Shown here piece after piece: positions 29,001 through 62,439 of a DNA stretch of 64,000 bases. The stretch is taken from contig OZ241890.1 in assembly GCA_965203475.1 (NCBI GenBank), positions 1,873,448 through 1,937,447 on the forward strand, in the 5' to 3' direction. The translations under genes were made by a program, and so were the position numbers. The stretch's first letter is position 1. Each line of letters begins with the position of its first letter. Under the pieces are notes generated by a model. That model was given only the letters and a program-made list of their open reading frames with translations. It did no database searches and was not told where the DNA came from. Source of the stretch: Gammaproteobacteria bacterium (GTDB taxonomy: Bacteria > Pseudomonadota > Gammaproteobacteria > UBA4575).

Positions 29001-29447
29001 ATGACCAAAGTCAAAGTTCTAGGAAAGGATGACTTTAAATCCTTAAACGAGTTGTTAAGATTATATGAAGACGTCTTTGAAATGAAAGACTTTGTTATGC
29101 CTAGTGATAACTATCTTCAATCATTACTAGTAAAGGAAGGGCTTACTTTTTTAGTTGCGATAATTGATGAAAAAATTGTGGGTGGACTAACGGCACATGA
29201 CTTGCCTTCAACTTATTTTGAAGCTAATGAAGTGTATGTTTACGATTTGGCGGTTGCAAAAAAACACCAATACCAGGGCATTGGGAAATTACTTTTAACT
29301 GAGCTTAAAAAGATATGTCATCAAAAAGGTGAGCGTGAATTCTTTTTACAGGCTGATATCAATGATTCACATGCCATTGACTTTTACCGCTCAACCGGTG
29401 GAATTCCGGAAGAAGTAATTCACTTTTCGTATAATACTACTAAGTAG
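29001..29447 (+). CDS. GNAT N-acetyltransferase of the AAC(3)-I (gentamicin 3-N-acetyltransferase) family
   Basis: 148 aa. It aligns by eye along its whole length with AacC1: P.D.YL..LL, VGGL.A..LP, E.Y.YDLAV...H..QGI, QAD..D..A..FY...G, EV.HF. Confidence 0.75.
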   Translation: MTKVKVLGKDDFKSLNELLRLYEDVFEMKDFVMPSDNYLQSLLVKEGLTFLVAIIDEKIVGGLTAHDLPSTYFEANEVYVYDLAVAKKHQYQGIGKLLLTELKKICHQKGEREFFLQADINDSHAIDFYRSTGGIPEEVIHFSYNTTK

Positions 29448-29474
29448 AATAAATTAGGTTGGTACCAATAAACT

Positions 29475-29595
29475 ACAAACATAAATTGTCGGCTTGCGAC
29501 CCTGAGCGCATGGATGCGCGAATAAGAGTTCCATCAAGGATGATGCAGCAGATTAATATTCTTATAATGCCTGCTAACGACCCAAAGCGGACATT
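29475..29595 (+). repeat. structured 121-nt repeat, copy A1 (full element)
   Basis: Positions 29501-29595 are 95/95 identical to 30202-30296. The ends are imperfectly inverted (aattgtcggcttgcgaccc / gacccaaagcggacatt). Internal hairpins are gcgcat-gg-atgcgc and catca-agga-tgatg. Confidence 0.9.
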
Positions 29596-29622
29596 ATAAA
29601 TTCAAATCAATTTCCTCTAAGA

Positions 29623-30117
29623 ATGCTAAAAAAGATTGAACGATCTAATGCTGACAAAATTTTAAGACGATTTGCTAATCGAATTAAACCAATAGGATTT
29701 ATCAGGACGAAAACAACATTCTTTGTTCGAGATACTGATTTAGTTGCAGAATTTATTCATGTGCATAAATATACTTTTGGACCATACTTCCGCATACATA
29801 CATGTATAAGAGTTCTAAATGATGCGAGAGACTTTATTGCCTTAACTGGCCCAATTGAGAGTGAATTTAAAACAAAGACATATAAATTTGAATTTGATGA
29901 ATCAAAAGAGTCTGTGGAAAATTGTGCTGAGGAAATGGCTAATTTTGTAGAAAATGAATCTGTTCCTTGGTTTAAACGTTGGGAAAATACGAAGTTATTG
30001 CTTGATGATGACTCTCCATTAAATGATCAAGATAAACAGTATTTAACTGATGCGATGCAAGGAAATGTAATAAAAAAATACGTAGAGCAATCAAGAGCAT
30101 TACTGAAACTTCAATGA
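29623..30117 (+). CDS. hypothetical protein (pattern reminiscent of DUF4304)
   Basis: 164-aa ORF lying between repeat copies A1 and A2. Confidence 0.5.
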   Translation: MLKKIERSNADKILRRFANRIKPIGFIRTKTTFFVRDTDLVAEFIHVHKYTFGPYFRIHTCIRVLNDARDFIALTGPIESEFKTKTYKFEFDESKESVENCAEEMANFVENESVPWFKRWENTKLLLDDDSPLNDQDKQYLTDAMQGNVIKKYVEQSRALLKLQ

Positions 30118-30175
30118 TCGCTATTGGCTGAAAGGAGACTTAATTGAGGTTTAAAGAGGTTGGATTCAAAAATTT

Positions 30176-30296
30176 ACAAACTTAAAACGTCAGCTTTCGA
30201 TCCTGAGCGCATGGATGCGCGAATAAGAGTTCCATCAAGGATGATGCAGCAGATTAATATTCTTATAATGCCTGCTAACGACCCAAAGCGGACATT
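30176..30296 (+). repeat. structured 121-nt repeat, copy A2 (full element)
   Basis: See A1. The 5' 26 nt have diverged (acaaac.taaa..gtc.gctt.cga.cc is conserved). The 3' end lies 4 nt before the next ATG. Confidence 0.9.
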
Positions 30297-30300
30297 TTGA

Positions 30301-30672
30301 ATGTTAGACATCTTTTCAAAACCTGTAATCGCATTAATTTTAGTCGCAATAATTTTCATTTTGCTTTTTGGTAAGTATTGGCGAGTACCTATTGATCATG
30401 CGCATTGGAATAAAAATACGAAGCGCGCTACTTACCTCACAATTTTAATAATTCTAACAGGTGTGTTTTTAACTGATATAGATGCAATAAGATCATCAAT
30501 TTACTGTATTGGAGCATTGTCACTATTACTTTATCCATGGTTTAGATGGGATACACCAAGAAGGTATTTTCATGAACTTGCGCCAATAGAATATAATTTA
30601 GTATTTGGTTGGGCTGGGATAATAATTTGTTTATCTTGGGTTATTTTTCGGCTCTACACTGATAATTTTTAG
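30301..30672 (+). CDS. hypothetical membrane protein (4 TM)
   Basis: 123-aa hydrophobic ORF lying between repeat copies A2 and A3. Confidence 0.45.
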   Translation: MLDIFSKPVIALILVAIIFILLFGKYWRVPIDHAHWNKNTKRATYLTILIILTGVFLTDIDAIRSSIYCIGALSLLLYPWFRWDTPRRYFHELAPIEYNLVFGWAGIIICLSWVIFRLYTDNF

Positions 30673-30704
30673 CAAGTATTTCTAGTACAAGAATGGCCAC
30701 TTCT

Positions 30705-30813
30705 GGCCGAAAGTCGACGTTTTAAATTCTTCGAACTTTAACCGGTTGCATCGTCCCTGATGGAACTCTTATTCGCATATCCCTATGCTCACTATTGGCC
30801 GAAAGCAGACATT
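30705..30813 (-). repeat. repeat copy A3: two partial, inverted pieces of the A element
   Basis: 30705-30725 is approximately the reverse complement of the A2 5' end. 30759-30813 is approximately the reverse complement of the A1 left arm (gatggaactcttattcgc is exact), and contains the hairpin gcata-tccc-tatgc. Confidence 0.75.
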
Positions 30814-30831
30814 AGGAATGTAAGCTGTCTA

Positions 30832-54829: not shown

Positions 54830-55765
54830 ATGCTGCATCGCTTTAATACATTTTTCCCGCTATGGGCGATCTTGTTGTCTATTGTTGCTTTTTATTATCC
54901 ACATTTTTTTATTCCTTATAAGCCCACCATTATCTACTTACTTGCACTGGTAATGTTTGGCATGGGGATTACATTACAACCAAAAGATTTTTTAAAACTT
55001 ACACATCTAAAAACAGTAATCATTGTTGGATTATTACTGCAATTTACCGTTATGCCTGCATTGGCATGGCTCATTAGCAAATCATTTAATCTGACGCTAC
55101 CGTTACTTACCGGCATGGTGTTAGTGGGCGCATGCCCTGGAGGTACAGCTTCTAATGTCATTTGTTATTTAGCACGTGGAAATGTAGCTTTGTCCATTGC
55201 CCTTACAACGTTTTCAACATTACTCGCCGTAATTGCCACACCTTTATTAACCTGGCTATATATTGGACAAAAATTAGATGTGCCTGTAACCAATATGATG
55301 CTAAGTGTTTTTAAAGTAGTGATTCTTCCTGTTGCAGCAGGTGTACTTATAAACTATTTTTTTGCCAAAAAAGTAATGCCTATTATTCGAATATTTCCCA
55401 GCATTTCCGTAATTGCGATCTGTATCATCATCGCCATAATTGTGGCTCTATCGCACAATACTCTACAAACGCTAGCCGTTGTAATTATTGCCGCAGTAAT
55501 GCTGCACAATATTCTGGGTTTACTGCTTGGCTATGGCATCAGCTATGTCTTGGGCTATGATGCGCAAATCCAAAAAACACTTGCAATTGAAGTGGGCATG
55601 CAAAATTCGGGCTTAGCAGTGGCGTTGGCGAATGATTTTTTTAAACCAGTGGCCGCACTCCCTGGCGCCGTTTTCTCAATATGGCATAATCTGTCAGGAT
55701 CATTATTATCGGCTTATTGGTCAAACAAAACGAATAACATAGAGAGTACATCCCATGACTGTTAA
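54830..55765 (+). CDS. bile acid:sodium symporter (BASS) family transporter
   Basis: 311 aa, polytopic, with the motif GACPGGTASNV. Confidence 0.85.
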   Translation: MLHRFNTFFPLWAILLSIVAFYYPHFFIPYKPTIIYLLALVMFGMGITLQPKDFLKLTHLKTVIIVGLLLQFTVMPALAWLISKSFNLTLPLLTGMVLVGACPGGTASNVICYLARGNVALSIALTTFSTLLAVIATPLLTWLYIGQKLDVPVTNMMLSVFKVVILPVAAGVLINYFFAKKVMPIIRIFPSISVIAICIIIAIIVALSHNTLQTLAVVIIAAVMLHNILGLLLGYGISYVLGYDAQIQKTLAIEVGMQNSGLAVALANDFFKPVAALPGAVFSIWHNLSGSLLSAYWSNKTNNIESTSHDC

Positions 55766-56048
55766 TACTTCTATTTCACTCATTGCCGCCATTGTTAGTT
55801 GGGCATTAGCTGTTTTTTTAGTAATGACCCTATTGTCAGGCACTTTCGATACGCGTAGCTGTCAGACTACTTGTGTGAGTTACATATTCTGGTCGTCTTT
55901 TGCTATTGCCATTGTCGGTCTTTTGTTTAGTTTGGGAAGTATTTCAGTGGGACAAGGCAGTGTGATTAAAACACTTTCGATGCTGGCCTTGATTGGTTTG
56001 TGTGGTATTTACATTACAACAATGCTAATCGGCACTTTCGGAATTTAG
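55755..56048 (+). CDS. hypothetical 3-TM membrane protein
   Basis: 97 aa, overlapping the BASS stop by 11 nt. Confidence 0.4.
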   Translation: MTVNTSISLIAAIVSWALAVFLVMTLLSGTFDTRSCQTTCVSYIFWSSFAIAIVGLLFSLGSISVGQGSVIKTLSMLALIGLCGIYITTMLIGTFGI

Positions 56049-56084
56049 AAAATCTAAAATCGTCTACATTGAGCAATTCGATTA

Positions 56085-56405
56085 TTATCGGATTCGCGTG
56101 TTTTTAAATTCAATTGAAGTTACTTGGTCACCAGCAAGTGCGAGTTTACAAATGTACTTATTCATTGATCCGCCATGTAAAGTAATCATCTGCTGATTTT
56201 CAACATTTGCTTTAGATACTGTCGTACGCAAATTATATTGCTTTGCATTCGCTAGGACCTTATTTGAAGAATCTCCCGTTTGCATTTGCTTACATGCTTG
56301 CTCAATCCTATCCGGTTCTAATATCCATGAATCGACTAAAATGCTGCCAATAAATACAACTATGAAACCTATTATAACTTTCCATAATATGCTGGGTTGT
56401 TTCAA
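56085..56405 (-). CDS. hypothetical membrane-anchored protein
   Basis: 106 aa with an N-terminal TM segment. It overlaps the upstream DUF1272 ORF by 4 nt. Confidence 0.4.
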   Translation of the reverse strand: MKQPSILWKVIIGFIVVFIGSILVDSWILEPDRIEQACKQMQTGDSSNKVLANAKQYNLRTTVSKANVENQQMITLHGGSMNKYICKLALAGDQVTSIEFKNTRIR

Positions 56406-56644
56406 CGTTTACATCCTTCCGGTTTATATACTCTTTCAGTCGATGCTGGAAACTTTGCAAGAAAATCTCCCGTTCTACTTGGTCTTTTAGTTAATTCGCC
56501 ACCACAATTTGCACACCGATTGTTAAGAATTGTCTTTGCACATGTTGTACACCAAGTACACTCCATTGAACAGATTAAGGCTTCTGTTGAATCTGGTGGC
56601 AAGTCTTTATCACAACATTCGCAATTTGGTTTTAATAGAAGCAT
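56402..56644 (-). CDS. DUF1272 zinc-ribbon-like protein
   Basis: 80 aa with the motifs KPNCE.CDKDLPP, C.ECT.C..C and CP/ANCGG.L..RP. Confidence 0.7.
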   Translation of the reverse strand: MLLLKPNCECCDKDLPPDSTEALICSMECTWCTTCAKTILNNRCANCGGELTKRPSRTGDFLAKFPASTERVYKPEGCKR

Positions 56645-56737
56645 CTTTATTCTCCTTTTATTGATAGATGAATTTGCATTTCAAATAAAATTAATTAGCC
56701 TATCTATTAATTGAGATTTATAGCATACCATGTATAC

Positions 56738-56753
56738 TGTACCGATCGGTACA
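56738..56753. promoter_or_regulatory. perfect 16-bp palindrome, candidate TetR operator
   Basis: TGTACCGATCGGTACA lies 20 nt upstream of the DUF1348 ATG. The operon contains a TetR regulator. Confidence 0.55.
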
Positions 56754-56772
56754 ATCATAATGGAGAATAACA

Positions 56773-57240
56773 ATGTCTGAAAGACCCCCTTTCCCACCTT
56801 TTAGTGAAGAAGATGCAATCCAAAAAGTACGCATGGCCGAAAATGCCTGGAATTTACAAGACCCTGAGAAAATTGCTATGGCCTATACCGAAGATAGCCG
56901 TTGGCGAAATCGGGCAGAATTTTTTAATGGCCGAGAAGAAATCATCGCCTTTTTAAAACGCAAGTGGGCGAGAGAACTTGATTATCGATTGATTAAAGAA
57001 TTATGGACGTATAACGGAAACCGGATTGCGGTGCGTTTTCAATATGAATATCACGATGACTCGGGCAACTGGTTTCGAGCTCACGGAAATGAAAATTGGG
57101 AATTTGATGAACGTGGACTGATGCGAAGAAGAGAAGCCAGCATTAATGATGTTCCGATTCAAGAGAGTGATCGTAAATTTTTATGGGAACAAGGAGCACG
57201 ACCTGATGATTTTCCTGGATTGACTGACTTAGGACTGTAA
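56773..57240 (+). CDS. DUF1348 (NTF2-fold) protein
   Basis: 155 aa with motifs typical of DUF1348: A..KV..AE.AWN..DP..V...YT.DS.WRNR.EF and WEFD..GLM. Confidence 0.7.
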
Positions 57241-57243
57241 TCA

Positions 57244-57798
57244 ATGCCTGCACAAATTTCTGCACGCAGTGAAATAATTCCAAAGCTTGGAGAAATTTTT
57301 AGAGAGTATGGATATGCTGGTACTTCATTGTCAGAAATAACGACTAAAACCAATCTTGGTAAAAGCAGTTTGTATCACTTTTTCCCAAATGGAAAAGCTG
57401 AAATGGCCGAGGCTGTATTAGATGAAATTGATACATGGTTTACACAAAATATATTTACGCCATTACGTAAATCTAAAGATACTAGTACAAGTATTCAAGT
57501 CATGTTTAAAGCAGTGGATGAGTATTTTCAATCAGGAAATCGTATTTGTTTAATTGGTGCATTTGCTTTAGATAATACTCGTGACCAATTCTTACAAATT
57601 GTGAGTTCATATTTTAAAGAATGGATAACTGCATTAGCGGTAGCACTTAAACGCGCTGGTTATAGTTCGCTTGAGGCTAAAGCACTGGCCGAAGAAATTG
57701 TCATAGGTATTCAAGGTGCGTTAGTGCTGGCAAGATCTCAAAATGACCCAAAAACCTTTACACGTGCTTTAAAAAGATTAAAAAATCGATTGATATAA
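57244..57798 (+). CDS. TetR/AcrR family transcriptional regulator
   Basis: 184 aa with the N-terminal HTH F...GY.GTS...I......GK.SLYHFF..K. Confidence 0.85.
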   Translation: MPAQISARSEIIPKLGEIFREYGYAGTSLSEITTKTNLGKSSLYHFFPNGKAEMAEAVLDEIDTWFTQNIFTPLRKSKDTSTSIQVMFKAVDEYFQSGNRICLIGAFALDNTRDQFLQIVSSYFKEWITALAVALKRAGYSSLEAKALAEEIVIGIQGALVLARSQNDPKTFTRALKRLKNRLI

Positions 57799-57804
57799 AC
57801 AATC

Positions 57805-58575
57805 ATGTCTACCTTTGCAGTGAAAGAGAGTAAAGATTTACAGTCTTTAGAAAAGCAATTATTCAATCACATTCTGTATAGTGCAATTCGTACGGAACAG
57901 CACTTGCAAATTTTTATGCAGCACCATGTATTTGCGGTGTGGGATTTTATGTCTCTCATTAAAGCGGTACAAAATTTGATTGCACCTACCTCTATCCCAT
58001 GGGTGCCATCCAAGAATCCGCAGTTTGTTAACTTTATCAATCAACTCGTTATAGAAGAGGAATCTGATGCCTCTTATCCCACTGCTGACAATGTTCCGAA
58101 AAGTCATTTTGAGCGCTACCTTGATGCAATGGATGAGATTGGTGCAAACACCTATATTATTTCACGGTTTATTAACACACTGCGTAATCATGGGCTAGAA
58201 ACAGCGCTTGAAATTCCAAATATCCCCACAGCTTCAAGAGAATTTATGAACTTTACTTTTGAAATAATCAATAGCCAGCAACCACACCTAATTATTGCAG
58301 TACTTGCATTGGGGAGAGAGAATTTGGTACCTCAATTATTTAGAAGTCTACAAAGAAATTTTTTAGTCGATAAAAATAAAACACCAAATTTGTATACGTA
58401 TTTAGATCATCATATACAACTCGATGAACAGCAGCATGGACCCATAGCAACAAAACTGTTAGCCGAAGTTTGTGCAGAATCATCCATTAAACATACTGAA
58501 GCGATCGAGGTCGCTGAAAAAGCGCTTGTAGCTAGACTAAACTTCTGGGACGGCATCCAACAAGCAATTAAATAA
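57805..58575 (+). CDS. DUF3050 (heme-oxygenase-like fold) protein
   Basis: 256 aa with the motif F.M..HVFAVWDFMSL.K.LQ. Confidence 0.65.
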   Translation: MSTFAVKESKDLQSLEKQLFNHILYSAIRTEQHLQIFMQHHVFAVWDFMSLIKAVQNLIAPTSIPWVPSKNPQFVNFINQLVIEEESDASYPTADNVPKSHFERYLDAMDEIGANTYIISRFINTLRNHGLETALEIPNIPTASREFMNFTFEIINSQQPHLIIAVLALGRENLVPQLFRSLQRNFLVDKNKTPNLYTYLDHHIQLDEQQHGPIATKLLAEVCAESSIKHTEAIEVAEKALVARLNFWDGIQQAIK

Positions 58576-58584
58576 CTTAGTGTG

Positions 58585-58706
58585 AATATGGACGAAGTGC
58601 ATGGTTGTGAGCATAGGGAAAAGCGAATATGAGTCGAATCATGAATGATTCGAACAGATTAATCTTTTCTTTATCGAATGTCCGCTAACGATCCAAAGCG
58701 GACATT
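58585..58706 (+). repeat. repeat copy A4 (diverged full element)
   Basis: It aligns with A1 across gagc.cat.gg...gcgaata.gagt..atca.g.atgat...cagattaat...gctaacga.ccaaagcggacatt. It has a local hairpin gaatgtccgc/gcggacattc, and the internal hairpin is replaced by gaatcat-ga-atgattc. Confidence 0.75.
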
Positions 58707-58735
58707 CGTATTCTATACAACAAATTAATATATTT

Positions 58736-59248
58736 TTAATTAATCAAATGTTGATATGAGAACAAATGATTCGTAGTCGTTAATGGTGCATGACATGCTC
58801 GACACTCATTTAAATCTTTCTCAGCCAAAGAACCATCAGGTTTGAAAGCTGCAAAATCCCAATCTTCATTTTTTAAACCATCAGGTAAATTATCGCTGAA
58901 CCCTTTTTCTCGTTGCATTACAGCAATCAATACAAATTTATCTCTGACTCTTCGATTTAAATTACTAGTTATAATTTTGCCTTCTTTATCTTTTTTAGCT
59001 TTATATACTTCAGCTACCAAAACAGAACCATATGGTAGTTTTCCATCTTCACCAGGACCTTGCATAGCTATGTCATTCGCAAATATACGGATAGTCTGAT
59101 CAGGATTCATCAAACGGTCATTACTTACATAGTTAGTAAACGTAGATCTATAATCCACCGGTAGTTGAATATTGTTGTTCCCACTAATTGCCAATGAAAT
59201 TGTAAATGTATAAAAAATTGCAATATAACTAAGTAATCTAATCATCAC
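58736..59248 (-). CDS. cytochrome P460 / c'-beta family periplasmic heme protein
   Basis: 170 aa with a signal peptide and a single C-terminal CRACH. The W.FA.F..DG...C..CH context is typical of the P460 family. Confidence 0.65.
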   Translation of the reverse strand: MMIRLLSYIAIFYTFTISLAISGNNNIQLPVDYRSTFTNYVSNDRLMNPDQTIRIFANDIAMQGPGEDGKLPYGSVLVAEVYKAKKDKEGKIITSNLNRRVRDKFVLIAVMQREKGFSDNLPDGLKNEDWDFAAFKPDGSLAEKDLNECRACHAPLTTTNHLFSYQHLIN

Positions 59249-59341
59249 TCTTCTCCTTTTCTTTCAGTATGGCAGCGACACCTGCACAGTCAGTGGGAAC
59301 AACCGTCTTAGTGCCAAAATTCATAACAGAATAAGTCTATT

Positions 59342-59382
59342 AAAATATGTATAATATATACTTTATATATTATACATATTTT
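59342..59382. promoter_or_regulatory. perfect 41-bp palindrome (19-bp arms, 3-nt spacer) in a divergent promoter region
   Basis: AAAATATGTATAATATATA-ctt-TATATATTATACATATTTT. I verified the arms base by base as exact reverse complements. Confidence 0.7.
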
Positions 59383-59434
59383 TTGATATACTCTAAATGA
59401 CCATTAAAAACATATACATAGCGATTATTGTCTT

Positions 59435-60040
59435 ATGGGCACTCCCAAGAAAATTGTCGACCTTTTAAATCGAAAGGCTTGGACGGTTAATGAGATTGCA
59501 AAAGAGCTTTCCATTTCGAGGAATGCTGCTCATCTTCAAATAAGTAAACTTGAAGCGATGGGTATCGTTGAAAAAAATACACAGCGCCCCCCAAAAGGCG
59601 CTGGAAAACCAGCACATGAATTCCGCACCGTTGCAGGATATGAAGACGCTTTTTCAACAGCGTATAGGCCGTTAATCGATGTGTTAATTCAAACAATGGC
59701 AAATAATTTAAGCACCAATGAGCGTTTAAATTTATTCGAGAAAACTGGTCGAGCGTTAGCTAAAAATGCGGGTTTGCAACCAAGTCATGATGTGCTTAAA
59801 GATATTCAAAATGCGATAATTAAAGTAAATAGCCTTGGCGCAATGGCAGAATTAAATTGCGAAAATGATGAAAACTATATTAGTTGTCATAGTTGTCCTG
59901 TAGCAACATTAGTACATAAAGAACCATTAACGTGTGATTTGGTAGCTTCTTTTTTTTCTGAAGCAACAGGTAATAAAGTCACTGTAAAATGCAATCGCGA
60001 TAAAACTGTTGTTTGTGGATTCCTTGTTGGAAAATCATGA
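59435..60040 (+). CDS. ArsR-like winged-HTH regulator with a Cys-containing C-terminal domain
   Basis: 201 aa with an N-terminal wHTH (I..LL....WTVNEIA.ELSISRNA...H...L...GIV). The C-terminal region carries the Cys residues C..E....SCHSCP...C. Confidence 0.6.
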   Translation: MGTPKKIVDLLNRKAWTVNEIAKELSISRNAAHLQISKLEAMGIVEKNTQRPPKGAGKPAHEFRTVAGYEDAFSTAYRPLIDVLIQTMANNLSTNERLNLFEKTGRALAKNAGLQPSHDVLKDIQNAIIKVNSLGAMAELNCENDENYISCHSCPVATLVHKEPLTCDLVASFFSEATGNKVTVKCNRDKTVVCGFLVGKS

Positions 60041-60133
60041 AAATTTAATTTCAGAATTGTTAACAAATGACCGATAGTGGAAATTAAGATCATCTAACTT
60101 TAATCTGATACAATATCCTTGTTGTAACTCTTA

Positions 60134-60230
60134 TTCGCGCGGTCGCTCCCGACTTCCTGTCTCCCGCGACACTTGTGCGTCCATGCACATCGTCCTGTGC
60201 TCAGGTCGAAAGCAGACATTTTAAAAGAAA
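60134..60230 (-). repeat. repeat copy A5a (inverted left arm of the A element with an insertion of about 35 nt)
   Basis: gtaactcttattcgcgc...gtgcgtccatgcaca...ctcaggtcgaaagcagacatt is approximately the reverse complement of A1 29484-29533. The hairpin is kept as tgtgc-gtccat-gcaca. Confidence 0.7.
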
Positions 60231-60250
60231 AGAATAAACTGCTCGAATCG

Positions 60251-60277
60251 GCAGAAAATTGTTCCTGCATTTTCTGC
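60251..60277 (-). terminator. hairpin downstream of recG
   Basis: Arms gcagaaaat / attttctgc (9 bp) with a 9-nt loop. On the minus strand the T-rich tract begins only after about 12 nt. Confidence 0.35.
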
Positions 60278-60302
60278 ACTTCCCACTTCCATGTAGGTCG
60301 TC

Positions 60303-60325
60303 CATGATTCGACTCATATTCGCTT
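60303..60325 (-). repeat. repeat fragment A5b
   Basis: A 23-nt exact reverse complement of A4 positions 58621-58643 (aagcgaatatgagtcgaatcatg). Confidence 0.8.
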
Positions 60326-60336
60326 AACCCTTACCC

Positions 60337-62439
60337 TCATACCTGCCCAAACTCTATAGATTTTCCTAACCATCGTTCAATAATTGCATCTACTCGTTGT
60401 AGATCATCGTTAAGTAAAGACTTTGCAGTTTGTTGCACTAAGGGAATTAAATCTTGATCACGCATAATGTTGGCAATGCGCAATTGCAACATGCCGGTTT
60501 GGCGTGTACCTAACACTTCTCCAGGCCCACGAATTTCTAAATCCACCCGTGCAATCTTGAAACCATCATTCGTGTTACGCATGGTGTCGATACGTAGTTT
60601 GGCATTTTCGGTAAGTGGTGGATCAAACACTAATACACACGAACTTTCTTCACTGCCTCGCCCTACGCGACCCCGCAATTGGTGCAACTGTGCCAACCCC
60701 AAACGTTCAGCATTTTCGATAATCATTAAACTCGCATTTGGAACATCTACGCCTACTTCAATTACCGTCGTTGCCACTAACAAATCAATTTTTCGGTTCG
60801 AAAACTGCTGCATTACAGCATCTTTTTCTTTACCTTTCATACGGCCATGTACCAGGCCCACTTTCACACCACGTAATAACTGGCTTAATTCACGATAAAC
60901 ATCTTCTGCTGCCTGACATTGCATCGCTTCTGACTCTTCTACCAAGGTGCACACCCAATAGGCCTGTTGTCCATTTCGACAAGCTTTGGCTACACGCTCT
61001 ACTACTTCATTTCTGCGTTCCATAGGAATGGCAATGGTTGTAATGGGTTTGCGCCCGGGAGGCAATTCATCCACCACAGAATAATCAAGATCCGCATAGG
61101 CTGTCATGGCCAAGGTTCTTGGAATAGGTGTTGCCGTCATAATAAGTTGGTGCGGGTGAAATTCATTTTGAATACCTTTTTCACGTAAGGCTAAACGTTG
61201 ATGCACACCAAAACGATGTTGTTCATCGATTACCACTAAAGCTAAATTCTTAAATTCGACACCTTGTTGAAACAAAGCATGGGTGCCAACGATAGCATTC
61301 GCGGTGCCAGTTGCAATGAGCGCTTTCATTTCATTACTTTTGCTTGCCGTAAGCTTGCCGGACAACCAGGCTAGACGAATACCATAGGGTTCTAACCAAT
61401 TCGAAAAATTCCGCAAATGTTGTTCGGCTAAAATTTCAGTAGGTGCCATGACAACAGCCTGATAACCGGCTTCAATCACTTGCATACAAGCGGCAATGGC
61501 AATTAACGTTTTCCCGCTACCTACATCACCTTGCACCAGTCGCAACATGGGATATTCATTTTCTAAATCTTCAAAAATCGTTTGAATTACTCTTTTCTGT
61601 GCACCCGTTAAGTCAAATGCCAAATCATTACCAAGTTGATTAAATAATTTTCCTTCGACTTGTACCTCTACTGCTTGATGTTTTTGTGCTTGCAACCGAA
61701 GTTTGGATAAACTTAATTGTTGAGCTAATAATTCTTCAAAGGCTAAACGACGCTGCATGGCATGTTTGCCTTCCGCCAACGCTTCGGTATCAGCTTCAGG
61801 AGGTGGGCGATGAACAAACTTGAGCGCATCTTTAATAGACACGCGTTGCCCATCAATCTCGGGCGGCATGGGAAGCAAATCCAACTCAGGTATGTTCTCA
61901 CTGTCTACCCACTTCAATGCTTGGGAAGTCAAACGTCGTAAGCTGAGTTGATGCAATCCTTCAGTTGTGGCGTAAATAGGTGTGAGGTGATCTTCAACTT
62001 TGGGAACAGCATCTTTATCTTGTATTTCATATTCAGGATGCACCATTTCAGGCCCTTTAATACCTTGGCGAATTTCACCAAAACATCGAATGGAAACACC
62101 ACGTGCCAGACTTTCACGCTGACTATTATTAAAGTAAAAAAAACGTAACAACACACGGCCGGTTCCATCTTCCACACTTACCAATAGCATACGACGTTTT
62201 CGGTATACCACCTCACTATGTTCCACAGTGCCTATCACTACACATTCATCACCAGGACGTAATGCCGCAACGGAACGTATACGTGTGCGATCCTGATAGC
62301 GAATTGGTAAATGAAAAAGCAAATCCTGCAAGGTGAAAATCTGCAGGCGTTGCAAACGCTCAGCAACTTTCGGCCCAACACCTTTTAAGGTTTCAACCGA
62401 GGGAAAAGCTTTATTTTGCAAAGAAACAGTAGGAACCAC
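60337..62439 (-). CDS. recG: ATP-dependent DNA helicase RecG
   Basis: 700 aa with a wedge domain and SF2 helicase motifs GDVGSGKT, DEQHRFG and TATPIPRT. Confidence 0.95.
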   Translation of the reverse strand: MVPTVSLQNKAFPSVETLKGVGPKVAERLQRLQIFTLQDLLFHLPIRYQDRTRIRSVAALRPGDECVVIGTVEHSEVVYRKRRMLLVSVEDGTGRVLLRFFYFNNSQRESLARGVSIRCFGEIRQGIKGPEMVHPEYEIQDKDAVPKVEDHLTPIYATTEGLHQLSLRRLTSQALKWVDSENIPELDLLPMPPEIDGQRVSIKDALKFVHRPPPEADTEALAEGKHAMQRRLAFEELLAQQLSLSKLRLQAQKHQAVEVQVEGKLFNQLGNDLAFDLTGAQKRVIQTIFEDLENEYPMLRLVQGDVGSGKTLIAIAACMQVIEAGYQAVVMAPTEILAEQHLRNFSNWLEPYGIRLAWLSGKLTASKSNEMKALIATGTANAIVGTHALFQQGVEFKNLALVVIDEQHRFGVHQRLALREKGIQNEFHPHQLIMTATPIPRTLAMTAYADLDYSVVDELPPGRKPITTIAIPMERRNEVVERVAKACRNGQQAYWVCTLVEESEAMQCQAAEDVYRELSQLLRGVKVGLVHGRMKGKEKDAVMQQFSNRKIDLLVATTVIEVGVDVPNASLMIIENAERLGLAQLHQLRGRVGRGSEESSCVLVFDPPLTENAKLRIDTMRNTNDGFKIARVDLEIRGPGEVLGTRQTGMLQLRIANIMRDQDLIPLVQQTAKSLLNDDLQRVDAIIERWLGKSIEFGQV

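What the first reader, a model, noticed from the sequence alone, without database searches (positions are those of the whole stretch)
58585..60325. Second mini-island bracketed by inverted repeat copies: cytochrome P460-family gene plus ArsR-like regulator
**Flanks.** The segment of about 1.75 kb between the DUF3050 gene and recG is flanked by repeat copies. On the left is a full A copy (A4, 58585-58706). On the right are two inverted partial copies: A5a at 60134-60230, and A5b at 60303-60325, which is a 23-nt exact reverse complement of part of A4.

**Parallel with island 1.** A + oriented full copy on the left and two partial inverted pieces on the right is the same arrangement seen in island 1.

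**Cargo.** The island carries a periplasmic single-heme protein of the P460/c'-beta family, whose members bind or oxidise hydroxylamine and NO, and a divergently transcribed wHTH regulator with a Cys-bearing C-terminal domain.

**Interpretation.** This suggests a self-contained, horizontally inserted N-oxide/hydroxylamine sensing-detoxification module that was mobilised or captured by the same repeat system.
Basis: partly seen in the sequence, partly recalled or inferred. Interest (0 to 1): 0.66.

Follow-up and report, generated by a model that had tools for sequence, protein, structure and literature searches.

The report
Accessory haem-sensor cassette beside recG
A small, lineage-specific two-gene cassette (a periplasmic cytochrome c'-beta and its own probable iron-sulfur repressor) sits in a variable hot spot next to recG. 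It is bordered by copies of an abundant, structured intergenic repeat that marks variable DNA but is not shown to move the cassette.

Summary
Repeat copies flank a divergent gene pair between a DUF3050 gene and recG.

- **Haem protein:** it matches Pfam Cytochrome_P460 and is closest to N. europaea cytochrome c'-beta (7S5O). It has Ala at both the Lys cross-link position and the carboxylate position and keeps an Arg cap, so it is a c'-beta and not a hydroxylamine-oxidising P460.
- **Regulator:** it is SufR-like rather than a classical ArsR. It has a winged helix-turn-helix domain, an invariant G-K-P in the wing, and conserved Cys spaced C-X2-C-X12-C-X18-C-X7-C.
- **Module:** the two genes are co-located on at least 31 other contigs. 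They were verified adjacent and divergent in six fetched loci from unrelated contexts. Each of the five intergenic regions examined has an AT-rich palindrome.
- **Site:** four relatives have recG directly abutting a small membrane-protein gene (an empty site). The window carries 4.3 kb there, and two relatives carry other cargo.
- **Repeats:** they belong to a high-copy repeat family with a conserved two-hairpin core and strong covariation, with no Rfam match. Copies occur only in variable stretches. No target-site duplication or transposase was found, so mobilisation by the repeats is unproven.

The parts
56049..60336 (.). Lineage-specific variable region between orf97 (a conserved small membrane protein) and recG. 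It holds orf106, DUF1272, DUF1348, TetR, DUF3050, repeat A4, the haem protein, the regulator, and repeats A5a/A5b.
   Evidence: tblastn synteny: in L003, L004, L005 and L007 the recG stop lies about 30-170 bp from the orf97 stop. L001 and L002 carry other genes there. GC is 0.33-0.40 here against 0.40-0.455 in recG.
58606..58706 (+). Repeat unit A4. It comprises GTGAGC, hairpin 1, GCGAATATGAGT, hairpin 2 (TCGAATCAT/ATGATTCGA), CAGATTAA, a spacer, and the REP hairpin AATGTCCGCT-N10-AGCGGACATT (58677-58706).
   Evidence: Model R1 hit at 58607-58665, 65.8 bits. Fold z-score -4.3. REP scan. The unit is sense-oriented 35 nt after the DUF3050 stop.
58736..59245 (-). Cytochrome c'-beta of the P460 superfamily, 169 aa from the ATG (170 aa from the upstream GTG at 59248). 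It has an N-terminal hydrophobic leader, Arg44 cap, Ala78 at the cross-link position, Ala108 at the carboxylate position, and C148-R-A-C151-H152.
   Evidence: PF16694, 71 bits. 7S5O, E 4.5e-21, with alignment. Residue roles from PMC11928373 Table 2. Family alignment A3.
59342..59382 (.). Perfect 19-bp-arm palindrome AAAATATGTATAATATATA-CTT-TATATATTATACATATTTT. It is the candidate operator, and each arm carries a TATAAT box.
   Evidence: It is unique in the window. The promoter-like site for the haem gene has its -10 at 59369-59374, inside the right arm. Analogous AT-rich palindromes occur in L081, L084, L085 and L086.
59435..60040 (+). SufR-like (COG2345-type) winged-HTH regulator, 201 aa. It has a G57-K58-P59 wing motif, conserved C151, C154, C167, C186 and C194, and H161.
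   Evidence: Pfam HTH_11/HTH_20/HTH_5. NCBIfam SufR_cyano covers residues 7-180 and is hit by 33 of 34 family members. Alignment A2. AlphaFold2 pLDDT 87.9.
60066..60232 (-). Repeat unit A5a. It has a degenerate REP (60066-60086) next to the regulator stop, the central domain (60097-60150), an inserted module of about 50 nt (60140-60192), and a 5' half-REP (60211-60230).
   Evidence: 45.5 bits. Contig depth is 16-22x the flanks.
60240..60340 (-). Repeat unit A5b, in tandem with A5a. The loop of hairpin 2 is expanded by about 52 nt. The 5' TGAG motif supplies the recG stop codon (60337-60339).
   Evidence: I6; the TGA closes the 752-codon frame. R1 gives a weak hit at 60285-60340.
60337..62439 (-). 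recG, the conserved core gene that bounds the hot spot.

Best explanation
**What it is (shown).** The segment is an accessory two-gene cassette lodged at the recG-proximal end of a variable hot spot.

**Gene 1.**
- It encodes an exported mono-haem cytochrome with the P460/c'-beta fold.
- It lacks the cross-linking Lys and the catalytic carboxylate, and it keeps an Arg cap.
- That makes it a NeCP-beta-like cytochrome c'-beta.
- Its likely role (inferred) is binding or turning over small haem ligands (NO, CO, peroxide) in the periplasm. Hydroxylamine oxidation is unlikely.

**Gene 2.**
- It is transcribed divergently and encodes a dimeric SufR-like winged-HTH repressor.
- Its conserved Cys residues probably hold an Fe-S cluster (inferred).

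**How it most likely works (inferred).**
- In the cluster-bound state the repressor sits on the 41-bp AT-rich palindrome, which carries both -10 boxes, and shuts off both genes.
- NO or oxidant damage to the cluster releases it and induces the cytochrome. The analogue is ArnR, which represses hmp.

**Module and site.**
- The pair is a conserved portable module (shown).
- Its arrival here was a lineage-specific insertion (shown from relatives).

**Flanking repeats.**
- They belong to an abundant, structured, REP-associated family that accumulates at junctions of variable genes, immediately 3' of stop codons (shown).
- They may provide short homology for cassette capture, or they may simply settle in tolerant DNA. 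They are not the ends of a demonstrable transposon.
For: **Haem protein.**
- PF16694.
- 7S5O alignment.
- residue roles.
- the family has A/G at the cross-link position, invariant D-R, and CXXCH.

**Module.**
- 31 regulator hits share a contig length with a haem-protein hit.
- the genes are adjacent and divergent with different neighbours, including contigs from Calditrichia and Granulosicoccus.
- The locus tags AB833_27820 and AB833_27825 are adjacent.

**Operator.**
- palindromes in five intergenic regions.
- the -10 box lies inside a palindrome arm.
- the motif is unique in the window.

**Regulator.**
- the SufR_cyano match spans both domains in 33 of 34 members, best E 2.8e-12.
- invariant GKP, and C154-X12-C167 with C194 at +27.
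- Mtb SufR has C179-X12-C192 and C220, a GRP AT-hook that binds A/T-rich DNA, and ArnR represses hmp.

**Insertion.**
- empty site in L003, L004, L005 and L007.
- other cargo in L001 and L002.

**Repeats.**
- the copies.
- 4-22x depth and many contig breaks.
- 90.5% of cells paired, 8 of 12 pairs with changes on both sides, 0 of 500 shuffles as good.
- six hits in the window and none in the recG loci of relatives.
- the REP hairpins found in L001, and the full hairpins found in the window, all lie in variable stretches.
- copies lie next to the module in L081.
- copies lie next to the module in L130.
Against: - No experiment or transcript data exist. No RNA runs were found.
- The SufR model score (26 bits) is far below its cut-off (178.8).
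- The residue equivalent to the cluster-ligating Glu195 is Val170.
- The wing motif is GKP, not GRP.
- The C-terminal fold's best PDB matches are BcsD/CesD at only E 1e-4, so Fe-S binding is an inference.
- The cytochrome's physiological ligand is unknown even for its solved relative.
- Relatives used for the empty site share only 75-84% RecG identity. Loss in several lineages cannot be formally excluded.
- Three haem-protein homologues (L082, L083, L129) lack the regulator.
Confidence: 0.6

Rival explanations
1. **The first reader's reading.** The inverted repeat copies A4 and A5 are the ends of a composite, MITE-pair-like element that transposed the two genes as a unit.
For: - A4 (+) and A5a (-) are inverted, with their REP ends facing the cargo.
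- In L081 the regulator is again followed by a REP plus an A unit in the same relative orientation, and a REP remnant follows the haem gene.
- L130 also has units beside the haem gene.
Against: - No direct duplication flanks the outer ends...GCATGGTT | and | CTGCCCAAAC.
- No transposase or integrase appears among the 37 window ORFs scanned.
- In L130 the unit is sense to the haem gene, whereas A4 is antisense to it. The architecture is therefore not conserved.
- L084, L085, L086 and L131 carry the module without any such repeat.
- The empty site lacks 4.3 kb, not 1.75 kb.
- The repeats are high-copy everywhere.
Confidence: 0.12
2. **Bystander repeats.** They are REP/BIME-like 3'-UTR or terminator elements that proliferate wherever intergenic DNA is unconstrained. 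The cassette arrived by ordinary homologous recombination of flanking core genes after DNA uptake.
For: - Sixteen of 22 units lie sense-oriented within 160 nt downstream of an ORF.
- Copies sit at convergent junctions, where hairpins are useful.
- The copy number is high.
- The hot spot is bounded by conserved recG and orf97 in all relatives.
Against: - The REP hairpins lack a following T-run and were not called as terminators.
- Confinement is strict. All four REPs in L001's 20.5 kb lie in the 3.6-kb cargo, one at every gene junction.
- In the window all six units lie in two small islands.
- This suggests more than passive accumulation.
Confidence: 0.3
3. **Ancestral region.** The region was present in the common ancestor and was lost independently in relatives. 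It is not an insertion.
For: - Relatives are only 75-84% identical in RecG.
- Genome sizes are small (1.8-2.4 Mb), and such genomes often shrink.
Against: - Six relatives show three different states and none shares any of the seven genes.
- The closest homologues of the haem protein, the regulator and DUF3050 are only 74%, 70% and 66% identical (best local BLASTP identity), and the first two were seen to lie in other contexts.
- GC content is lower than in the flanks.
Confidence: 0.08
4. **Non-redox regulator.** The regulator is a metal(loid)- or small-molecule-binding ArsR/MarR/V4R-type sensor, with Cys as a Zn or thiol-switch site. The cytochrome is regulated by something other than NO or redox state.
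For: - Marginal HTH_5 (ArsR) and HTH_20 matches.
- A weak MetOD1 hit, and MsvR hits for two members.
- Five Cys plus one His could equally form a Zn site or a disulfide switch.
Against: - The SufR-type spacing C-X12-C ... C(+27) and the full-length SufR model match in 33 of 34 members.
- The AT-rich operators fit an AT-hook-type wing.
- There is a strict partnership with a haem protein whose relatives bind NO.
Confidence: 0.15

Closest known systems
Nitrosomonas europaea cytochrome c'-beta (NeCP-beta, PDB 7S5O)
   Same: - Best solved relative: E 4.5e-21 over residues 26-169.
- Same fold and same C-terminal CXXCH.
- Arg cap (Arg46 aligns with Arg44 here).
- Ala at the carboxylate position.
- No Lys cross-link.
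   Different: - The cross-link position is Ala here (Ala or Gly across the family), whereas NeCP-beta has Met79.
- The review lists Phe, Met, Leu, Val, Ile or Glu at this position, so a small residue is a further variant.
- The host is not a known nitrifier.
- The gene is paired with a dedicated regulator.
Cytochrome P460 (CytL; NeP460 2JE3, McP460 6HIU)
   Same: Same Pfam family and same overall fold.
   Different: It lacks the defining haem-Lys cross-link residue and the distal Glu/Asp needed for NH2OH oxidation.
SufR-like / COG2345 Fe-S transcription factors (Mtb SufR; C. glutamicum ArnR)
   Same: - N-terminal winged-HTH domain.
- A G-x-P motif in the wing.
- A C-terminal sensory domain with C-X12-C and a third Cys about 27 residues later.
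- A palindromic A/T-rich operator and probable autoregulation.
- ArnR represses an NO-detoxifying haem protein gene, hmp.
   Different: - Far below the SufR model cut-off.
- GKP instead of GRP.
- Val at the Glu195/His ligand position.
- Two extra conserved Cys (C151, C186).
- The target is a periplasmic c'-beta, not suf, nar or hmp.
REP / BIME elements and REPINs of Gammaproteobacteria
   Same: - A 30-nt imperfect palindrome (10-bp arms, 10-nt loop).
- Strictly extragenic and high-copy.
- Mosaic combinations with other modules, in both orientations.
   Different: - It is coupled to a 58-nt two-hairpin core with conserved single-stranded motifs and covariation.
- The core often abuts or supplies a stop codon.
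- Copies are confined to variable gene junctions.
- No RAYT has been identified.
Integron gene cassettes (ORF + attC)
   Same: Small promoterless-looking accessory ORFs are each followed by a structured repeat (island 1; L001 cargo; L114).
   Different: - There are no RYYYAAC / GTTRRRY core sites.
- No integrase was found.
- The repeats occur in both orientations and in tandem.

Membership tests
Cytochrome P460 sensu stricto (CytL) | P460-superfamily fold or profile match | tested here: met
   PF16694 at 71.2 bits against a cut-off of 27, covering the full model 1-125.
Cytochrome P460 sensu stricto (CytL) | Cross-linking Lys (NeP460 Lys70, McP460 Lys78, NsP460 Lys106) | tested here: not met
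   The position aligned to NeCP-beta Met79 / McCP-beta Phe61 is Ala78 (VLVAEVY). It is Ala or Gly in all 38 family members.
Cytochrome P460 sensu stricto (CytL) | Distal proton-accepting carboxylate (Glu96 / Asp102) | tested here: not met
   Ala108 aligns to NeCP-beta Ala109.
Cytochrome P460 sensu stricto (CytL) | 460-nm ferrous Soret band and NH2OH oxidase activity | not testable with these tools
   This needs purified protein.
Cytochrome c'-beta (CytS) | P460 fold with canonical c-haem (CXXCH) and no Lys cross-link | tested here: met
   C148-x-x-C151-H152 is invariant, and there is no Lys at the cross-link column.
Cytochrome c'-beta (CytS) | Distal capping residue (Phe or Arg) | tested here: met
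   Arg44, in an invariant D-R pair, aligns to NeCP-beta Arg46.
Cytochrome c'-beta (CytS) | Export to the periplasm | tested here: inconclusive
   An N-terminal hydrophobic leader (MIRLLSYIAIFYTFTISLAISG) is present in all homologues. No signal-peptide predictor was available.
SufR-like / COG2345 Fe-S regulators | N-terminal winged-HTH DNA-binding domain | tested here: met
   HTH_11, HTH_20, HTH_5 and TrmB matches at residues 6-53. The AlphaFold2 model shows H3-13, H18-24, H29-41 and strands E45-48 and E62-65.
SufR-like / COG2345 Fe-S regulators | AT-hook 'GRP' in the wing loop | tested here: inconclusive
   G57-K58-P59 is invariant in the wing, with Lys replacing Arg. The operators are AT-rich.
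SufR-like / COG2345 Fe-S regulators | Three cluster-ligating Cys (Mtb C179-X12-C192 ... C220) | tested here: met
   C154-X12-C167 and C194 (+27) are all invariant.
SufR-like / COG2345 Fe-S regulators | Fourth ligand (Glu or His) three residues after the second Cys | tested here: not met
   Residue 170 is a near-invariant Val. Invariant C186 and near-invariant C151 and H161 are alternative candidates.
SufR-like / COG2345 Fe-S regulators | Profile membership (TIGR02702 SufR_cyano above cut-off) | tested here: not met
   26 bits against a cut-off of 178.8. The match covers residues 7-180 and is found in 33 of 34 members, best E 2.8e-12. This indicates a distant relative, not a SufR orthologue.
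SufR-like / COG2345 Fe-S regulators | [4Fe-4S] binding and cluster-dependent repression | not testable with these tools
   This needs biochemistry.
ArsR/SmtB metalloregulators | About 100-aa wHTH protein with alpha3N or alpha5 metal sites | tested here: inconclusive
   HTH_5 scores 23.8 bits against a cut-off of 22. NF033788 scores 19 bits against a cut-off of 55. The extra 120-aa domain is not ArsR-like.
Composite transposon / MITE pair | Target-site duplication flanking the outer ends | tested here: not met
   The outer flanks ...GCATGGTT and CTGCCCAAAC... share nothing.
Composite transposon / MITE pair | Cognate transposase | tested here: inconclusive
   None appears among 37 window ORFs scanned, nor in the ORFs listed (not profile-scanned) on repeat-rich contigs L110 and L114. 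The rest of the 2.4-Mb genome was not available.
Composite transposon / MITE pair | An empty site that lacks exactly the repeat-bounded segment | tested here: not met
   The empty sites lack the whole 4.3 kb. No excision joint was seen in runs X1, X3 or X4.
Integron cassette (attC) | R'' RYYYAAC and R' GTTRRRY core sites, and an integrase | tested here: not met
   The unit ends are AATGTCYGCT / AGCGGACATT. No integrase was found.
REP / BIME | Short extragenic imperfect palindrome in high copy number | tested here: met
REP / BIME | Associated RAYT (TnpA-REP) gene in the genome | not tested
   Only 64 kb of the genome is available.

The most novel reading that the evidence does not exclude
The REP-plus-two-hairpin units would be a new kind of structured mobile element that inserts at or just after stop codons and REP hairpins. 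Over time it would build integrase-less, integron-like arrays of single-gene cassettes at hot spots such as recG|orf97. The cytochrome/regulator pair would be one such cassette. The same family can also insert in frame into coding genes, as the 48-nt module does in recG of L039.
Probability: 0.15. Interest if true: 0.8.

Novelty: new variant of a known kind. Interest (0 to 1): 0.5.

Why it matters
- **A predicted regulator for c'-beta.** Cytochromes c'-beta have no settled physiological role, and full-text searches found no paper describing a dedicated regulator for them. A conserved partnership with a SufR-like probable Fe-S sensor gives a direct, testable handle on what signal induces them. 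It would also give the large, mostly uncharacterised COG2345 family a second predicted non-suf regulon after ArnR.
- **A tractable repeat system.** The flanking repeat family has clear covariation and no Rfam match, and it is confined to variable gene junctions. It is a workable case for asking whether REP-type elements take part in gene-cassette turnover in small-genome environmental Gammaproteobacteria.

Tried and rejected
- **Acinetobacter origin (my first guess):** rejected. The nearest genomes are uncultured Gammaproteobacteria/Thiotrichales MAGs.
- **Rfam:** no match on the repeats, at gathering threshold or at E up to 10.
- **tRNA or tmRNA as an insertion target:** none found.
- **attC reading:** the core sites are absent.
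- **Hammerhead-like reading of 'AUGAGU-stem-AAC':** the core does not fit.
- **Plasmid database:** no hit for the repeat or the haem protein.
- **PDB sequence search for the regulator C-domain:** nothing found. Foldseek gave only BcsD/CesD at E 1e-4.
- The zero depth over 59060-60006 is attributed to that filter. Runs X1 and X2 hold all sampled words of 58580-59330, and X4 holds 59868-60018 identically.
- **'Joint' 55716>58970:** it has 21-nt sides, 10 inserted letters and twice the local depth. I treat it as an unrelated contig.
- **RNA runs:** none found.
- **DUF3050 homologue search:** no linkage with the module.
- **Metagenome pattern scan:** about three quarters of the 42 hits were chance matches. 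They were filtered by blastn and the covariance model.
Full report
**1. What is in the sequence**

Between a DUF3050 gene (57805-58575, +) and recG (60337-62439, -) lie two divergent ORFs:
- a 169/170-aa ORF at 58736-59245/59248 (-);
- a 201-aa ORF at 59435-60040 (+).

A window-wide repeat search found one family with copies at six places:
- 29456-29601 (+)
- 30157-30302 (+)
- 30722-30813 (-)
- 58585-58706 (+)
- about 60084-60230 (-)
- 60298-60331 (-)

On closer reading each copy is a modular unit with this order:
- (G/C)TGAGC
- hairpin 1
- GCGAATAWGAGT
- hairpin 2
- CAGATTAA
- a spacer of about 20 nt
- a 30-nt REP-like hairpin, AATGTCCGCT-N10-AGCGGACATT

Many units are also preceded by a half REP.

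- A5a is a whole unit with a roughly 50-nt insertion in hairpin 1.
- A5b is a whole unit whose hairpin-2 loop is expanded by about 52 nt.
- The two lie in tandem on the minus strand directly after recG.
- The TGA of A5b's TGAG motif is the recG stop codon.

**2. The haem protein**

- It matches Pfam Cytochrome_P460 over the whole model, at 71 bits against a cut-off of 27.
- Its best solved relative is 7S5O (E 4.5e-21). The 2025 review identifies 7S5O as N. europaea cytochrome c'-beta, with Met79 at the cross-link position, Ala109 at the carboxylate position and Arg46 as cap.
- In the printed alignment those positions are Ala78, Ala108 and Arg44 in the window protein.
- In 38 homologues the cross-link column is always Ala or Gly. 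The D-R cap and the CXXCH motif are invariant.
- It is therefore a cytochrome c'-beta, not a true P460, and hydroxylamine oxidation is unlikely.
- NeCP-beta forms a compound I with peroxide, and its in vivo role is still open.

**3. The regulator**

- Pfam sees only the N-terminal winged helix-turn-helix domain.
- NCBIfam's SufR_cyano model matches residues 7-180 weakly. It is hit by 33 of 34 family members, best E 2.8e-12.
- The family alignment shows invariant G57-K58-P59 in the wing, invariant C154, C167, C186 and C194, and near-invariant C151 and H161.
- A 2025 preprint on SufR-like (COG2345) factors describes:
  - a winged-HTH domain with a GRP AT-hook in the wing that reads A/T-rich minor grooves;
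  - a [4Fe-4S] cluster held by C179-X12-C192, E195 and C220;
  - ArnR as the only other member with known targets, including hmp for NO detoxification.
- Here the spacing is C154-X12-C167 with C194 at +27. The Glu position is Val170, so a different fourth ligand (C186 or C151) would be needed.
- AlphaFold2 gives a confident model (pLDDT 87.9).
- The C-terminal domain finds only BcsD/CesD-like folds in the PDB, at E 1e-4.

**4. A conserved portable module**

- Of the 66 regulator homologues other than the window's own protein, 31 sit on contigs whose length equals that of a contig carrying a haem-protein homologue.
- I verified adjacency and divergent orientation in six fetched loci:
  - L081
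  - L084
  - L085 (Calditrichia)
  - L086 (Granulosicoccus)
  - L130
  - L131
- One NCBI record has adjacent locus tags for the two genes.
- The neighbours differ every time.
- Three haem-protein homologues lack the regulator (L082, L083, L129).
- The five intergenic regions examined (window, L081, L084, L085, L086) each contain an AT-rich palindrome.
- In the window it has perfect 19-bp arms (59342-59382) and is unique in 64 kb.
- The promoter-like -10 box for the haem gene lies inside one arm.

**5. Is it an island?**

- The nearest genomes are uncultured Gammaproteobacteria with chromosomes of about 2 Mb. Identity over the RecG C-terminus is 80-89%.
- All keep the order spoT-ridA-recG.
- In L003, L004, L005 and L007 the recG stop is followed within about 30-170 bp by the convergent homologue of window orf97 (55755-56048). 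This is an empty site.
- The window has 4.3 kb there, holding seven genes plus the repeats.
- L001 has 3.6 kb of other genes, and L002 has 2 kb of others.
- So the junction is a hot spot, and the cytochrome/regulator pair occupies its recG-proximal end.
- The island has slightly lower GC than its flanks.

**6. The repeats**

- *Copy number.* Contigs of the source sample pile up 4x to 22x over the repeats and break there with many different continuations.
- *More copies.* A metagenome scan filtered by blastn recovered genuine copies on ten metagenome contigs. Blastn of the repeat units also found a copy on L081. The covariance-model search found one on L130.
- *Covariation.* An alignment of 19 cores shows two helices:
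  - 90.5% of cells are paired;
  - 8 of 12 pairs have changes on both sides;
  - 0 of 500 shuffles reach this;
  - slid controls give 17-41% paired.
- *Known families.* Rfam has nothing, even at E up to 10.
- *Distribution.* A covariance model finds six copies in the window, all within the two small islands, and none in the recG loci of relatives.
- *L001.* All four REP hairpins in its 20.5 kb lie in the cargo, one at each gene junction.
- *Position.* Units usually lie sense-oriented just after an ORF. In at least four cases their TGA is the stop codon.
- *Beside the module.* Units or REPs lie beside the module in L081 and L130, and a REP lies beside a lone haem gene in L082.

Evidence against a transposon:
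- There is no target-site duplication.
- Pfam scans of 37 window ORFs found no transposase or integrase, and the ORFs listed on repeat-rich contigs L110 and L114 look like ordinary genes.
- Orientation relative to the haem gene differs between the window and L130.
- Four module loci have no such repeats.

**7. Verdict**

The cargo identification is right at family level but needs refinement: c'-beta rather than P460, and SufR-like rather than ArsR.
- 'Self-contained, horizontally inserted module' is well supported.
- 'Mobilised by the repeats' remains an unproven, minority possibility.
- The most interesting products are the conserved regulator/cytochrome partnership and the uncatalogued structured repeat family.

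Noticed in passing
window 29502-29559, 30203-30260, 30735-30792(-), 58607-58665, 60097-60150(-), 60285-60340(-); also L081, L088, L093, L096, L100, L101, L104, L107, L108, L110, L114, L130: A 58-nt two-hairpin core (GTGAGC / GCGAATAWGAGT / CAGATTAA) shows strong compensatory covariation and has no Rfam match. It is always linked to REP hairpins. Its copy number in the source sample is high, with 4-22x contig depth over the repeats.
   Followed up: partly
window 60140-60192 and L039 4163-4215: The roughly 50-nt module inserted in hairpin 1 of A5a is 87% identical to a 48-nt in-frame insertion (VQGRTSVAGGRMPEAT) in the recG coding sequence of a distant GC-rich gammaproteobacterium. Stem changes between the two are compensatory. 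The same module also occurs in L130 and L093.
   Followed up: partly
window 60337-60339; L093 449; L110 4980 and about 3815: The TGA within the repeat's 5' 'TGAG(C)' motif serves as the stop codon of the upstream gene: recG here, and other genes elsewhere. Relatives end recG with TAA or TAG instead.
   Followed up: partly
L001 10503-14063: In the closest relative, the different cargo at the same recG|orf97 hot spot (a 144-aa ORF, an aldehyde dehydrogenase and an isochorismatase) has a REP hairpin at every gene junction. There are none in the remaining 17 kb.
   Followed up: yes
window 29001-30830: 'Island 1' holds a GNAT acetyltransferase followed by two ORFs with no Pfam match (164 aa, and 123 aa that is membrane-like). 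They are separated by units A1 and A2 and closed by the inverted A3. No comparison with relatives was possible.
   Followed up: partly
L081 4015-7469: In the genome with the closest haem-protein homologue, the module sits between two haem-biosynthesis genes: hemB/ALAD and coproporphyrinogen oxidase.
   Followed up: no
window 56085-58575: The left part of the variable region is a separate accessory block: orf106 and DUF1272 on the minus strand, then DUF1348 (SnoaL-like), a TetR regulator and DUF3050 (haem-oxygenase-like fold) on the plus strand. DUF3050's nearest homologue is only 64-66% identical and is not linked to the module elsewhere.
   Followed up: partly
window 59582-59609 (-): A terminator-like GC hairpin plus T-run lies on the minus strand inside the regulator ORF, in the stretch that encodes the wing (QRPPKGAGKP). 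It is probably coincidental.
   Followed up: no
window 59341-59382; 55716/58970: read laying refuses the AT-rich palindrome, and contigs spanning it seem to be dropped, which gives a false zero depth over 59060-60006. An odd 'joint' 55716>58970 has 21-nt sides and looks like an unrelated abundant contig.
   Followed up: partly
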